From contig OX597827.1 in the NCBI GenBank assembly GCA_951406725.2, positions 13,020,001 through 13,084,000 of the forward strand: DNA of 64,000 nt. Reading direction: 5' to 3'. The position numbers and the translations under genes are program-made. The notes under the pieces are model-generated. The model saw only the letters and a list, made by a program, of their open reading frames with translations, had not been told where the DNA came from and made no database searches. The stretch is from Octopus vulgaris. Lineage: Eukaryota. Positions 7,078 to 60,435 of this stretch are shown here, one piece after another (the stretch's first letter is position 1; each line of letters opens with the position of its first letter).

Positions 7078-7692
7078 CTCTTTTACTTTGTTTACTCTTT
7101 TATTTCAGTCATTTGACTGTGGTCATGCTGGGGCACCACCTTTAGTCGAGCAAATCGACCCCAGGACTTATTTTTTGTAAGCCTAGAACATATTCTATCA
7201 GTCTCTTTTGCCGAACCGCTAAGTTACGGAGAAGTAAACACACCAGCATTGGGTGTCAAGCGATGTTGGGAGGACAAACACAGACACACATACATATATA
7301 TAAAATGTGATCGCATGTGTACCGTTGATGATTTTTTTCCTCCGTCTTCCCTTCCTTGGATCTTTCCTTTTTCTATGTTTCTGACAAAGAGCTCCGCTCG
7401 AAACGTTAAATCCTCCTTCTTTCCTTCCTTTCCTGAGTGTCCACTAACACTATACTTGTTCCATGTCCTCACGCTGTTGTGTTTTCTCTTTATGTTTTCA
7501 TGTTTGGATTAACTATATATACATATATAAACATATATGCGACGGGTTTCTTTCAGTTTCTGTCTACCAAATCCACTCACAAGGCTTTGGTCAGCCCAAA
7601 GCTATAGTAGAAGACACTTGCCCAAGGTGCCATGCAGTGGGACTGATCCCGGAACCATGTGGTTGGTAAGCGAGCTACTTACCACACAGCCA
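7078..7692 (-). mobile_element. SINE family A interrupted by a hammerhead-motif unit
   Basis: Family A tail and head flank 7306-7514. Confidence 0.85.
7306..7514 (+). mobile_element. ~200-bp (TA)n-embedded element with minimal hammerhead motif (Penelope pLTR/retrozyme-like)
   Basis: GTTT-CTGACAA-A-GAGC-TCC-GCTC-GAAAC-GTT-AAAT at 7377-7411. Same unit at 56993 and 60229. Confidence 0.65.
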
Positions 7693-8389
7693 TTTCTACC
7701 CCTCAAAACTTTTTCAATATTTATTGCTTTCGGTAAGATGTCTAAATTCATGCATGTCTAGTCTTCTACAATATTAGTTACTGATTAATATTTAGAATGC
7801 TGACATTTAACTTATGTCACAATTTGCAAAGACTAGCAGAGCTAGTTATGCGTTCCCATGGGGCTAATAACTGATTAACTGTATTTGTAATGGCAAGAGT
7901 GACAATGAAATATGTTTGCAGCTCAGTGGACCTAGTGTATTAGGGAAGAGTGGGGGGTGTAATGTGTGTGTGTGTGTGTGTGTGTGTGTGTGTATCTCAA
8001 AATGTATAATAAATATATGTATGCCTGCATGTTCATGTGTATCTGTGTAAAAATGTATGTATACATATATTTATATATACAGACATACACATATATACAT
8101 TTGTATGTGTGTATATATATATATATATGTGTGTGTACATACATATATGTATATATATATACATATATATATGAATGTGCATATGTATATGTATATATGA
8201 ATGTATGCATATATATATATAGAGAGAGAGAGAGAAAGATATACATACATATATACACACATATATATATATACAAATATACATACGTACATATGTACAT
8301 ACATAAATATATATATATATATATATATATATATATATATATATACATATATATATATATATATATATATCAGGACATGGTGAGAGTCG

Positions 8390-8650
8390 CGTTTCGTCGC
8401 AATACAGAAGTTTGAGGTAATCATCTAGATGAAATGAACACTACAAAATGAGCTGATTATATATGGAAATTAAAAAAAAAAAGGAACGACTTTGGGGTCA
8501 GAATATTAAATGGTGAATACTGAAAAACCCTGTCCTAATTAAATTGAGAATAAAGGCTGTGAACTACATACCGCAGAGAAAATGAAAAACCATAAAATCC
8601 TTCATAAACAAAGCCATTATTCTGACTCCAGATTAGGAATGCTTGACAAT
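8390..8650 (+). pseudogene. Penelope-like GIY-YIG endonuclease C-terminal remnant
   Basis: Fragments MNTTK*ADYIWKLK, NIKW*ILK and GCELHTAEK match the T.LS.YIW.LK...I.W.IL...C.LC..EK pattern. Adjacent to (TA)n. Confidence 0.5.
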
Positions 8651-8717
8651 GTAAGTAGTATGAAAAGCACCTAACCAACACCTGTGAAATTTTACCTTCA
8701 CCCAACCAGAATCATAT

Positions 8718-9134
8718 GAGTGGCTGTGTGGTAAGTAGCTTGCTTACCAACCACATTGTTCTGGGTTCAATCCCCCTGCATGGCACCTTGGACAAGTGTC
8801 TTCCACTACAGCCTCGTGTCTACCAAAGCCTTGTGAGTGGATTTGGTAGATGGAAACTGAAAGAAGCCCATCATATATATGTATATATATATGTGTGTGT
8901 GTGTGTGTGTGTGTGTTTGCGGGTCTGTGTTTGTTCCCCCCCCCCAACATCTCTTGACAACCGATGCTGGTGTGTTTATGTCCCCCGTAACTTAGCGGTT
9001 TGGCAAAAGAGACTGATAGAATAAGTACTAGGCTTACTACAAAGAATAAGTCCTGGGGTCGATTTGCTCAACTAAAGGCAGTGCTGCAGCATGGCCGCAC
9101 TCAAATGACTGAAACGAGTAAAAGAGTAAAAGAG
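8718..9134 (+). mobile_element. SINE family A
   Basis: Near full-length match to the other copies. Confidence 0.9.
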
Positions 9135-9469
9135 TATGCACAAATAGCTAATATTGTCTTCACTTCAGACTTCCTTTGCTTTTTTCGTCTTCCAATTTTC
9201 TCTCTTTTATCATTCACCTACTTTAAATTTACATTTACTTTTCCTTTTTACAGCCATCATTCCCTTCTTTCAGCTATATTATTCCTTATTTTGCTGGTCC
9301 CTCCATCATGTCGACTTGGAATAGTTCTTCTCCCTCCCCCCCTCTTTCTCCCTCTTGCTGCTGTCTTCTCAGCCCTATTATCATTTTAGGAACCACGCCT
9401 GTGTGTGTGTGAATGTGTGTGTGTATCCACACACACACACAAACACAGAGGAGCGTGGTTGTGTTGTGA

Positions 9470-9770
9470 TATCTACATATCAAATTTGATCGCAATCGGA
9501 TGGAGGATGCCCAAGATCCTAGAAGACACACACACAGACAGACAGAATGGATTTTATATTATAGATAATACATATATATGTGTGTTTATATATATGTTTG
9601 TGAGTTTGTGTTTATCCCCCCAACATTGTTTGACAATCAATGCTGGTGTGTTTATGTCCCCATATCTTAGTGGTTTGGCAAAAGAGGCCGATAGAATAAG
9701 TACTGGGCATACAAAGAATAAGTCCTAGGGTAGATTTGCTCGACTAAAGGTGGTGCCCCAGCTAGGCCAT
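9470..9770. mobile_element. Helitron-like 5' fragment (minus, ~9470-9567) joined to the 3' half of SINE A (plus)
   Basis: TCAAATTTGATCGCAATCGG...ACAGACAGAC...TTTTATATTATAGA resembles the end of the 6175-6558 element. A family A tail follows. Confidence 0.5.
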
Positions 9771-10366
9771 CATCAGACATTTGAGTTCAAGTTTATATAG
9801 TACCTGCTAAGTTAAAATTGTCTTGGAAAAGCTGAGTTCTGTTAAATGGTAGTTAGTTTGTTTGGGAGGCTGTGATGGTACGGTGTTATGGAGGATTTTT
9901 ATTGAGTAAATTTGGGGTTGTGTTATAGTTCAGAATTTATTCAGGCATGTAGAACTTTGTAATCAGATGTATCTATTTAGGTATGTCATCTTCAGGTCAT
10001 AGGGCTTCACAAAAGAACGTTTTTAGGTGTAATGTGCTTGTTAGTTAGCAGATGTATCACTAAGTTTAGTGGTTGTGGGTATTATTTGGATATTAATGGA
10101 ATATTAACTTTTGTTTTAAGGATGTGAAGGTTAAATCTTTAACCATCACATTCTCAAGACCAGCATCTTCTGTTACAGCCTCAGATCAAATTAATCCTTA
10201 TGATAGATATAGCAGATGGAAACTACACACATATGGCCATACATATATACAAACTTACATGCATGCATGCATACATACATACATACATACATACATACAT
10301 ACATACATACATACATACATACATACATACATACATACATACATACATACACACACACATACACAA

Positions 10367-58199: not shown

Positions 58200-58531
58200 A
58201 TAGAAAATGATTTTTTTAATGTTGATATTAAATAAAAAGGGAGGTTATGGTTTATTGATTTTTACCAAATGGATAATAATGGTCATAAAGTTGAGACCTG
58301 TTTATCTATTCAGACCATGAGTATAGTTTAATGTCTGTCACTACTAATTCTACCAATTATGCTTTTAGTATCTTTGTCACTAAGTGAGGTGTTCACCAGA
58401 GTCACTGTGGTTACAGTGTAAGATTATTATGGATTAGACTAGGTTGAGTGTATTGTAACCAGGAACAAAACTTATGAAGATTTCATAATATATTTATTTA
58501 AAGAAAGGCTGTACACATATCTTCAGCTTTC

Positions 58532-58945
58532 GGCAGTGAGCTGGCAGAAACGTTAGCATGCCGGGTGAAATGCTTTGCGGTATTTCGTCCGCCGCTTCGT
58601 TCTGAGTTCAAATTCCGCCGAGGTCGACTTTGCCTTTCATCCTTTCGGGGTCGATTAAATAAGTACCAGTTACGCACTGGGTCGATATAATCGATTTTCA
58701 TCCCTTTGTCTGTCCTTGTTTGTCCCCTCTGTGTTTAGCCCCTTGTGGGTAATAAAGAAATAGGTATTTCGTCCGCCGCTGCATTCTGAGTTCAAATTCT
58801 GCCGAGGTCGACTTTGCCTTTCATCCTTTCGGGGTCGATTAAATAAGTACCAGTTACGCACTGGGGTCGATATAATCGATTTAATCCCTTTGTCTGTCCT
58901 TGTTTGTCCTCTCTATGTTTAGCCCCTTGTGGGTAGTAAAGAAAT
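58532..58945 (+). mobile_element. SINE family B head-to-tail dimer
   Basis: The second unit starts at GGTATTTCGTCC (~58763). Confidence 0.9.
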
Positions 58946-59128
58946 AAGTTTAAAGTTACAGATGGCTAATGGTATGTCCATCCATGCTCAAAGTTTGCAC
59001 CACTAGTCCGGAACCCTTATCTTGCTCTGTGTATCAATCTCCTGGAAACTGTTCAGAAACTTGCAACCAGACAAATACTCAGTGTCAGGTATCTATCATA
59101 CTGTGAATGTTTTGCTTTCCTGAATATG

Positions 59129-59362
59129 TATTTCTTTACTACCCACAAGGGGCTAAACATAGAGGGGACAAACAAGGACAGACACAGGGATTAAGTCGAT
59201 TACATCGAGCCCGGTGCGAAACTGGTACTTAATTTATCGACCCCGAAAGGATGAAAGGCAAAGTCGACCTCGGCGGAATTTGAACTCAGAACGTAGCGGC
59301 AGATGAAATACGGTTACGCATTTCGCTCGGCGTGCTAACGGTTCTGCCAGCTTGCCGCCTTA
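59129..59362 (-). mobile_element. SINE family B
   Basis: 13-bp TSD TTYCCTGAATATG at 59116-59128 and 59363-59375. Confidence 0.9.
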
Positions 59363-59639
59363 TTCCCTGAATATGGACACGTTAAAGCTCCAATGTTTGG
59401 CAACTGTTTTGATAATCCACGGGGTTATCCACCATCTTTCCAACAATAACTTTCGGCCCCTTTATAAATTCCATAAATCTAACATTCATGGAAATGCTTA
59501 ACACAGCACCCATAGCATTTGGAAATACTTCTCATATTCAGAATTAATGAAGCATGGAATAAACTGCCCATATCATTTGTTAGCTGTTGGGACACTACAT
59601 CCTTCAAAACTTCCACGCTTCCTGGAATTCACTAACAGT

Positions 59640-60021
59640 ACACCTGATGACCCCCACCTGATGTAGTGTCCCAGTACATGGAATATACACAGAAAGGGAA
59701 CAGTGAATAAGTTGTTAAAAATAACTAAATACAATGAATAAATAGGTGTAGGAGTGGCTGTGTGGTAAGTAGCTTGCTTACAAACCACATGGTTCCGGGT
59801 TCAGTCCCACTGTGTGGCACCTTGGGCGAGTGTCTTCTACTACAGCCTCGGGCCGACCAAAGCCTTGTGAGTGGATTTGGTAAACGGAAACTGAAAGAAG
59901 CCCATCATATATGACTCCCACCCCATTGTATTTATTTATTTTTAACAACTTATTCACTGTTCACTTTCTGTGTATATTCTATGTACTGGGACACTACATC
60001 AGGTGGGGTGTCATCAGGTGT
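59640..60021. repeat. ~97-bp inverted repeat enclosing a SINE A 5' half (59744-59910)
   Basis: Arms 59640-59736 and 59924-60021 are near-perfect reverse complements. Confidence 0.9.
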
Positions 60022-60228
60022 TCTTCATCAAAGATGAAGGCAGATTCGTAGAATGATCAGAGAAAGCCTATCAAAAATGTGTGCGCAAATTATACGTTAA
60101 AGTCTATTTGCTTTTGCAAGATTAGAGAGTCGTATTATTAATTTACCAAATATATCCTGAAATACCTCCCACACATTCTTTCTGTCTCTCTCACTCTCTC
60201 CCTGTATATATATGTATATATATATATA

Positions 60229-60435
60229 TGTGACCTCGTGAGTACCGCTGGTGATTTTTTTCCTCTGTCTTCCCTTCTCGGGATCTTTCCTTCTCCTATG
60301 TTTCCGACGAAGAGCTCCGCTCGAAACGTTTAACCCTCCTTCTTCCCTTCTTTCCTGAGCGTCCAATAATACTTTATTTGTCCCACGTCCTCGCGTTGTT
60401 GTGTTTTTTTTTGTGTTTTCTTGTTTGGATTAACT
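60229..60435 (+). mobile_element. ~200-bp (TA)n-embedded hammerhead-motif unit
   Basis: GTTT-CCGACGA-A-GAGC-TCC-GCTC-GAAAC-GTT-TAAC at 60300-60334. Confidence 0.65.

What the first reader, a model, noticed from the sequence alone, without database searches (positions are those of the whole stretch)
7306..60435. Fixed-length ~200-bp family in (TA)n carrying a minimal hammerhead-like motif
Seen: three copies (7306, 56993, 60229) with matching start (TGA...GTACCG) and end (TTTGGATTAACT), all in TA tracts. Their consensus is GTTT-CYGACGA-A-GAGC(TCC)GCTC-GAAAC-GTT-AAAC. That gives a short stem I, an extra A after A9, and a palindromic ACGT stem III. Known: Penelope-like elements carry such minimal type I hammerheads, proposed to cleave as dimers. 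Each copy has a core deviation (G8A in one, U4C in two). Inference: a discrete non-autonomous PLE-terminus or retrozyme-like element.
Basis: partly seen in the sequence, partly recalled or inferred. Interest (0 to 1): 0.7.

Follow-up and report, generated by a model that had tools for sequence, protein, structure and literature searches.

The report
Neptune retroelement end-stubs with U4C hammerhead
The three repeats are the hammerhead-bearing end piece of a protein-coding Penelope-type jumping gene, present in tens of thousands of short copies, and their shared length likely arises because the element's enzyme starts copying inside its own RNA and runs off that RNA's front end.

Summary
The three copies are real (83-89% alike; about 5x10^4 copies genome-wide). 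They are not a stand-alone retrozyme. The ~206-bp unit is the terminal repeat (pLTR) of a ~6.2-kb Neptune-type Penelope-like element (RT, CX4CxxC linker, C-terminal GIY-YIG); a young subfamily has an intact 949-aa ORF. The 3' end is fixed. The 5' end is only partly fixed: 11 of 30 copies stop at -10..0, 17 are shorter, 2 longer. Likely mechanism: RT starts inside the mRNA just behind the unit and runs off its 5' end. Support: 31 of 60 loci holding the 5' UTR show a jump from the unit's start region to near the ORF start, and short and long copies interleave on a tree. The motif matches the published minimal PLE hammerhead. G8A looks like CpG decay; U4C is inherited in the younger lineages, including the youngest. 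Copies do not cluster at the cut site; cleavage and the transcription start are untested. This scan noted similar PLE end-stubs on other DNA before.

The parts
7302..7514 (+). Solo pLTR stub, older U4 subfamily; starts at -4, inside the 5' wall; short TA runs on both sides
   Evidence: the AAAATGTG start matches the element variant seen
7377..7411 (+). Minimal type I hammerhead motif, copy 1: C3 at 7381, canonical U4, G8A at 7386 (CpG transition), predicted cut after 7407, G-U pair in stem I
56993..57192 (+). Solo pLTR stub, C4 'mid' subfamily; starts at +2, followed by (TA)n 57192-57224
57061..57095 (+). Minimal hammerhead motif, copy 2: C3 at 57065, U4C, stem I broken by T72A, predicted cut after 57091
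60230..60435 (+). Solo pLTR stub, C4 'young' subfamily; start ambiguous over 60226-60230 (ATAT shared with the target); keeps the element's own TTTATATA junction before (TA)n
60300..60334 (+). Minimal hammerhead motif, copy 3: C3 at 60304, U4C, stem I broken by A102T, predicted cut after 60330
60437..60610 (+). (TA)n target tract behind copy 3

Best explanation
The three repeats are solo copies of the ~206-bp hammerhead-bearing terminal repeat (pLTR) of a ~6.2-kb Neptune-type Penelope-like retrotransposon inserted in (TA)n, and they are likely run-off cDNAs made from the front end of the element's own mRNA. Steps: (1, shown) the full element is unit - TTATATA - ~250-nt 5' UTR - 949-aa RT/GIY-YIG ORF - 2-3-kb CA-rich 3' UTR - unit - (TA)n, often in tandem. 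(2, inferred) Pol II starts in the upstream repeat at about -9..-6, at a TCA initiator-like site. (3, inferred, by analogy with anole PAc) the protein binds near the ORF start, nicks (TA)n and starts reverse transcription inside the RNA directly behind GGATTAAC(T), less often ~110 nt further on. (4, partly shown) RT falls off early (shorter stubs), reaches the RNA 5' end and is joined to the target through the ATAT microhomology (the ~206-bp class), or jumps to the RNA near the start codon and continues (partial tandems). Long copies likely come from read-through of tandem arrays. (5, inferred) the hammerhead sets neither boundary; it is a conserved minimal type I motif, predicted to cut slowly if at all and only as a dimer or with protein help.
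For: Linkage: 28 of 30 loci found with a probe from ~1 kb upstream carry the unit 0.7-1.3 kb downstream. L063, L064 and L078 have unit-ORF-unit. 12 of 13 insertions of the young subfamily D have two or more units 6.16-6.22 kb apart. Pfam gives RVT_1 (E 0.001) and GIY-YIG (E 0.011) on the 949-aa ORF, both below the curated cut-off; 465 homologues at E<=1e-20. 5' wall: 10 of 15 blind copies, 16 of 30 core-anchored, 11 of 30 3'-anchored (six places shared). Of the 13 copies that reach position 0, 11 stop within 11 nt where about 0.5 are expected (P 2e-14). Internal start: inside full elements the unit continues TTATATACCGC..., so RNA goes on behind the fixed 3' end. Of all 60 exact matches of the 5'-UTR start, 31 are [unit part + UTR to +420..+685, median 458; start codon at +471] fused directly to a new unit that begins at -58..+57 (13 at -9..+4, none beyond -58) with no TA at the junction; 12 end at +307..+339 (classed by eye). 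Short and long copies interleave on the tree, and both U4 and C4 subfamilies have long or UTR-linked members. 3' junction types do not differ between short and long C4 copies (25:36 against 14:13, p=0.36). In subfamily D, 6 of 41 copies stop at the homologous TCA. Literature: internal initiation, protein binding within the first 172 nt of the ORF and hammerhead dispensable for insertion in vitro (PMC11167929); Penelope transcript starts inside the upstream pLTR (PMC2377424).
Against: No RNA 5' end was seen: only contigs could be laid, so the start site is inferred from insertion ends. An untemplated G (cap trace) is not convincing: 3 of 28 true copies in one class, 3 of 5 ending at -9 in another. 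The wall is soft (-22..+2) and overlaps ATAT microhomology, which alone favours joints at -4..0. All 12 two-unit D insertions have upstream repeats reaching 152-2266 nt above the core, past the wall, and about 30 of 41 D copies run more than 165 nt upstream, so in the youngest lineage stubs are a minority and another RNA source must dominate. The tree has little resolution inside subfamilies and some long copies were labelled short, so re-copying of stubs is not excluded. PAc is a Poseidon element; the analogy to Neptune is untested.
Confidence: 0.62

Rival explanations
1. Same parent element, but the stubs multiply themselves: a stub keeps an internal promoter or is read through by the host, and its RNA (unit plus UA run) is copied in trans by the Neptune protein, as a SINE would be.
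For: Stubs far outnumber bodies in the older subfamilies (6 of 47 unselected copies pass -10) but not in young D, as amplification over time would give. D. virilis Penelope has an internal promoter. pLTR sequences sufficed for trans mobilisation in a rotifer (PMC3846280). 2,379 copies carry the ATTCAA start and 0 of 28 true copies sampled pass -22.
Against: No stub-only clade; no significant erosion of the native 3' junction in stubs; the wall also appears at jump junctions joined to 5'-UTR sequence. In PAc the needed binding region lies behind the start site, which a stub RNA lacks.
Confidence: 0.2
2. Ordinary 5' truncation of long cDNAs: RT copies long read-through RNAs from the last unit, and the apparent fixed length comes from an RNA structure that stalls RT or from ATAT microhomology with the (TA)n target, not from a transcript start.
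For: More than half of the copies are truncated inside the unit; many joints sit exactly on ATAT; long D insertions ignore the wall.
Against: Other TA-like words in the unit give no such peak (in D, 1 of 100 at ATAC +102; 0 of 41 at TATG). Many ends lie at -9..-6, outside the microhomology, and at non-TA jump junctions. Beyond the wall lengths spread over hundreds of bases.
Confidence: 0.13
3. An independent non-LTR retrozyme: tandem copies are transcribed, cut by the hammerhead to unit length, circularised and re-inserted.
For: Size (150-450 bp) and a type I motif fit the class (PMC7229834); retrozymes are reported to derive from pLTRs (bioRxiv 10.64898/2026.07.22.740005); one jump junction (L295, U4 lineage) begins exactly at +102.
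Against: Copies are dispersed monomers; the one triple at L064 is spaced by (TA)n; the motif is minimal, not canonical; boundaries lie ~105 nt either side of the cut; no clustering of starts at the cut.
Confidence: 0.04

Closest known systems
Neptune-clade EN+ Penelope-like elements (Craig et al. 2021, PMC8557442: introduction, passages and one supplement part read)
   Same: Single ORF with RT then C-terminal GIY-YIG; CX4CxxC linker with 24 residues to the next Cys (25-27 in three of the Neptune rows of the paper's EN alignment, 7 in two Nematis rows; my count); two Cys between the GIY and YIG equivalents; microsatellite bias; partial tandems, inverted 5' copies, hammerhead in the pLTR.
   Different: 2-3-kb CA-rich 3' UTR; second start site ~110 nt behind the first instead of a 30-40-bp tail; tens of thousands of solo units with a 5' wall. 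No RT tree against named clades was built.
[quoted passage not shown]
   Same: Short helix I (4 bp), extra nucleotide between 9 and 10.1, G10.1-C11.1, palindromic 15.2-16.2 without loop 3, mostly single dispersed motifs ascribed to truncated PLEs.
   Different: Helix II only 4 bp; U4C fixed in the younger lineages; U17 in the window family, C17 in subfamily D.
PAc, Poseidon element of the green anole (Frangieh et al. 2024, PMC11167929: parts 1-2 of 4 read)
   Same: Two internal RT start sites, AT-rich target, both strands used (here: inverted pairs), no ends at the hammerhead cut.
   Different: In PAc the hammerhead overlaps the start codon and initiation needs no homology; here the motif lies ~370 nt before the ATG and the main start coincides with TTATATA. 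PAc was tested in vitro; this is read from insertions only.
Metazoan non-LTR retrozymes (PMC7229834, passages; bioRxiv 10.64898/2026.07.22.740005, abstract and first part of results)
   Same: Size range, type I hammerhead, pLTR kinship, no ORF in the short copies.
   Different: No tandem arrays of unit period, minimal rather than canonical motif, ends unrelated to the cut, direct continuity with a coding parent.

Membership tests
EN+ Penelope-like element | Single ORF with RT followed by C-terminal GIY-YIG | tested here: met
   949-aa ORF in L375; Pfam RVT_1 E 0.001 and GIY-YIG E 0.011, both under the curated cut-off; homologues with the same domains
EN+ Penelope-like element | pLTRs from partial tandems; 5'-truncated and inverted copies; optional tail | tested here: met
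   the tail here is ~110 nt, not 30-40
EN+ Penelope-like element | CCHH motif in the endonuclease | tested here: met
   LIYCIKCNLCGMLYVG, then RFTEH and VARHF in the translated ORF, read by eye
Neptune clade | CX2-5CxxC linker between RT and EN with Neptune-type spacing | tested here: met
   CSRSRCNTC plus 24 residues to the next Cys against the alignment
Neptune clade | RT groups with named Neptune elements on a tree | not tested
   No full reference sequences were fetched; the clade name rests on domain order and linker
Minimal PLE hammerhead | Extra nucleotide after A9, G10.1-C11.1, palindromic 15.2-16.2, short helix I | tested here: met
   (G83-C93 in 216, C98-G99 in 201, A97-T100 in 217 of 229 pooled units)
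Minimal PLE hammerhead | CUGANGA core | tested here: inconclusive
   Met in the older subfamily (48 of 49 U4), not met in the younger ones (77 of 81 and 59 of 62 C4) or in D; 38 of 229 have a fully canonical core
Minimal PLE hammerhead | Stem covariation | tested here: inconclusive
   Within the family few two-sided changes (5 A-U at 71/105, 2 C-G at 73/103). Between three families of this genome stem I differs and still pairs: GUUU/AAAC, UCUUU/AAAGA, GACAC/GUGUU (104, 17 and 5 hits)
Minimal PLE hammerhead | Self-cleavage as a dimer or with protein | not testable with these tools
   In silico the dimeric fold (-7.3 kcal/mol) loses to other pairings (-23.9); no assay possible
Non-LTR retrozyme | Head-to-tail tandem repeats of unit length | tested here: not met
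   2 of 99 neighbour gaps under 1 kb on one chromosome arm; no array of this period in the window
Non-LTR retrozyme | Canonical type I hammerhead with loop-loop contacts | tested here: not met
   Minimal motif without loop 3; no Rfam hammerhead among the 150 listed of 299 window matches or at gathering score in L376
Non-LTR retrozyme | Circular RNA of unit length | not testable with these tools
   Only contigs were on offer
tRNA-headed / Pol III SINE | tRNA-derived head, no internal T run | tested here: not met
   ARAGORN finds 0 genes in L064, L078, L376; a run of 6-7 T at about +25 would stop Pol III (the rule is recalled knowledge)

The most novel reading that the evidence does not exclude
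The genome holds an in vivo record of the PLE copying cycle that explains how pseudo-LTRs are regenerated: RT starts inside the mRNA, runs to the 5' end and jumps back onto the RNA where the protein is tethered near the start codon, so solo pLTRs, partial tandems and inverted pairs are three outcomes of one reaction. The still-spreading lineage has kept a 33-nt hammerhead motif letter for letter, U4C included, so it is either a working U4C ribozyme or a fold now kept as a protein-binding signal.
Probability: 0.4. Interest if true: 0.62.

Novelty: new member of a known kind. Interest (0 to 1): 0.42.

Why it matters
The element type and its hammerhead are known, so the finding as given is ordinary. 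What adds value: (a) the insertion ends suggest how PLE terminal repeats are rebuilt, for which Schostak et al. 2008 saw no obvious mechanism beyond tandem formation, and they extend the internal-initiation result from a Poseidon element in vitro to a Neptune-type element in vivo; (b) many dispersed minimal hammerheads in animal genomes may be by-products of this reaction, not retrozymes; (c) a young subfamily with about 960 near-identical cores and a natural intact ORF makes both the mechanism and the U4C core testable at the bench. I found no paper on this family or on this wall-and-jump pattern in the searches (open-access library only; Repbase and Dfam were not searchable).

Tried and rejected
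Rfam: no hammerhead among the 150 listed of 299 window matches, only microsatellite-driven miRNA hits; 0 at gathering score in L376. Sequencing runs: no RNA holder listed; four contig runs laid, all cover the unit, but contigs show no starts and their depth is no copy number, so not used as evidence. Cap-derived extra G: weak, not claimed. Exact-pattern ratios (13,489 core matches against 53 and 296 just upstream) overstate the step, because the upstream words miss the ATTCAA and D variants; samples put 0-13% of copies beyond -10. Hammerhead cut as boundary: rejected, one junction at +102 aside. Splicing as the cause of jump junctions: positions vary on both sides, so unlikely; not tested formally. 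Programmed frameshift in subfamily D: shifts lie in C runs and differ between copies, and one copy is continuous, so read as slippage or assembly error. Shared unique flanks among stubs: swamped by other repeats in TA tracts, no conclusion (only the first 45 pairs per side were printed). Pol III or tRNA head, a lead from earlier notes: not present. The dimer energies printed count mismatched pairs and were redone. The old/C4 split failed (2 against 45), so only its pooled counts are used. My notebook says 'no compensatory changes'; in fact shows the 7 two-sided changes reported above.
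Full report
Numbering: G of GTGACC = +1, the base before it 0. The unit ends at +206 (GGATTAACT). One search uses L078, where the unit ends at about +212. The genome is a 2.8-Gb animal assembly in 227 contigs; earlier notes call it octopus-like, which I did not test.

1. Observation. The three copies are at 7302-7514, 56993-57192 and 60230-60435, all on +. They are 83-89% alike and the only ones in the window. A 19-mer from it has 13,489 exact matches in the genome against 0 for the control, the 3'-terminal 20-mer 10,826. 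Eighty 10-kb stretches picked without regard to content (78 at even steps, 2 beside the window) held 15 copies, about 52,000 per genome, range 29,000-87,000.

2. Parent element. Ten of the 30 best hits extended 5' of the unit, two of them by more than 1 kb. A probe from that upstream part gave 30 loci, 28 with the unit 0.7-1.3 kb downstream, many with a GIY-YIG-type frame upstream. Twenty 10-kb stretches showed RT frames and three copies with the unit on both sides of the ORF. A protein search revealed a young subfamily, D. Twelve of 13 D insertions had two or more units 6.16-6.22 kb apart, two as tandem arrays, and one copy has an intact 949-aa ORF. Pfam sees RVT_1 and GIY-YIG below its cut-offs; 465 homologues came up, mostly with the same domains. 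Domain order and the CX4CxxC linker with 24 residues to the next Cys match Neptune rather than Nematis or Naiad in Craig et al. 2021. No RT tree was built, so the clade name rests on motifs.

3. Boundaries. The 3' end is fixed: 30 of 30 best hits end at +205..+207, 29 before a TA-type run (these hits are biased to full length). Inside full elements the unit continues TTATATACCGC..., so the element itself supplies a TA word at this site. The 5' end is a mixture. 3'-anchored sample: 11 of 30 at -10..0, 17 inside, 2 beyond. Core-anchored: 16 of 30 at -10..0, 12 inside, 2 beyond. Blind: 10 of 15 at -10..+2, none beyond. Pooled unselected copies: 18, 23 and 6 of 47. Under a constant fall-off rate the pile-up has P 2e-14. 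Past the wall lengths spread over hundreds of bases. The wall sits on TCATTC or TCTTTC behind CTTCCGG; of 28 true copies with the ATTCAA start none passes -22. In D, 6 of 41 stop at the homologous TCA but about 30 run on.

4. Rare structures. All 60 exact matches of the 5'-UTR start were examined and classed by eye: 31 jump structures (UTR up to +420..+685, median 458, fused to a new unit starting at -58..+57; 13 at -9..+4, 9 upstream, 9 inside; L300 uncertain), 2 jumps into the ORF, 12 ending at +307..+339, mostly before a TA run (several as inverted pairs), 3 ending at about +238..+253, 8 running on into the ORF, 4 too diverged to class. Read in the direction of cDNA synthesis, a jump structure means: start behind the unit, copy to the unit's start region, continue from near the start codon (+471). 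This needs a template that carries RNA behind the start site, and it shows the wall without any TA tract. A heterogeneous circular RNA would give the same junctions and is not excluded.

5. Are stubs their own family? On a tree of 198 units (the 31 from the best-hit loci left out), the short/long label changes 52 times against 53.9 +/- 2.6 in 200 shuffles, while the U4/C4 label changes 5 times against 37 (the U4 column itself was in the alignment). Both U4 and C4 groups contain long or UTR-linked units. So stubs follow the coding lineages. Resolution within subfamilies is low.

6. The hammerhead. It has the features that Cervera and de la Pena 2014 list for minimal PLE motifs. Among 229 pooled units three subfamilies separate, and each window copy belongs to a different one. 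The older one (mean pairwise distance 0.116) has U4 in 48 of 49; the younger two (0.067, 0.068) have C4 in 77 of 81 and 59 of 62. G8A occurs in 13 of 228 units, scattered over both groups, as CpG decay would. D shares 33 of 33 motif letters, C4 included, with the young subfamily while the rest of the unit is 77% identical (p about 2e-4 uncorrected), so the motif is likely under selection. Perreault et al. 2011 note that U4C lowers activity considerably in vitro yet allows viroid infectivity (PMC3088659, passages). Stem I covaries between three families of this genome but little within this one. Predicted folds form stem II in two of three window copies, not stem I, and the dimeric hammerhead is far from the lowest-energy pairing. 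Copy starts do not cluster at the cut, as Frangieh et al. found for PAc reads, where the ribozyme was protein-assisted and not needed for insertion.

7. Mechanism. Shown: parent element, fixed 3' end, 5' wall, jump and tail structures, inherited U4C. Inferred: a transcription start at the wall, internal initiation, tethering near the start codon, slow or absent cleavage. I put 0.62 on run-off from the mRNA front end, 0.2 on stubs re-copied in trans, 0.13 on a stall or microhomology wall, 0.04 on a retrozyme. That the unit is the pLTR of a coding PLE I hold at about 0.97. The main result against the favoured model is that long D insertions start well upstream of the wall and that stubs are a minority in D.

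8. Papers seen: PMC4209133 and PMC11167929, parts 1-2 of 4; PMC8557442, introduction, passages, supplement search and one supplement part; PMC2377424, PMC3846280, PMC3088659, PMC7229834, passages; bioRxiv 10.64898/2026.07.22.740005, abstract and first part of results (its supplements are closed and could list related families). Supplements of the other papers were not read and may list this family. Repbase and Dfam could not be searched. Earlier notes of this scan describe PLE end-stubs with hammerheads in this and other genomes; the search by this sequence found none.

9. Verdict. A new member of a known kind, interest 0.42. The stub family is ordinary; the wall-and-jump record and the U4C core in a lineage that appears still active are the parts worth testing.

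Noticed in passing
window 17021-17192 (+); motif match 17069-17168: A copy of a sister family with a related minimal hammerhead: same stem II arms, GTAG loop, A6U core (CTGTNGA), stem I TCTTT/AAAGA; 17 hits in the fetched loci. Parent ORF not sought.
   Followed up: partly
L371-L386; G000 C10:97.80-97.83 Mb, C16:15.98-16.00 Mb: Young subfamily D: 962 exact core matches, near-identical 6.2-kb copies, tandem arrays, intact 949-aa ORF in L375; it keeps 33 of 33 motif letters while the rest of the unit is 122 of 158 identical; GUC cut triplet but a U-U mismatch in stem I.
   Followed up: yes
L195, L201, L214, L294, L297: Head-to-head insertions pairing one arm that ends at the main 3' site with one arm that ends at +313..+339, as copying from both target strands would give.
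   Followed up: partly
L295:1673-1751 (oriented): One jump junction in the U4 lineage starts exactly at the predicted hammerhead cut (+102); a single case, compatible with chance.
   Followed up: partly
element positions -19..-4 (e.g. L013, L313): An ETS-like CTTCCGG word (label recalled) directly before TCTTTC or TCATTC (initiator-like) is kept across subfamilies at the 5' wall.
   Followed up: no
fetched loci: A third minimal hammerhead family with canonical CTGATGA core, long stem II and GACAC/GTGTT stem I (5 hits).
   Followed up: no
L125, L141, L172, L174: Diverged copies have G at position 17 (GTG), a triplet that hammerheads are not expected to cut (rule recalled).
   Followed up: no
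window, families D16-D19; 61364-62300: Other dispersed repeat families of 190-300 bp, one of them next to copy 1 (7514-7703), and a long GAG/GAT-rich tract.
   Followed up: no
L033:1-807, L040; L068:1425-3080: A mariner-like transposase ORF and a LINE-like RT ORF in flanks, named by eye from the translations.
   Followed up: no
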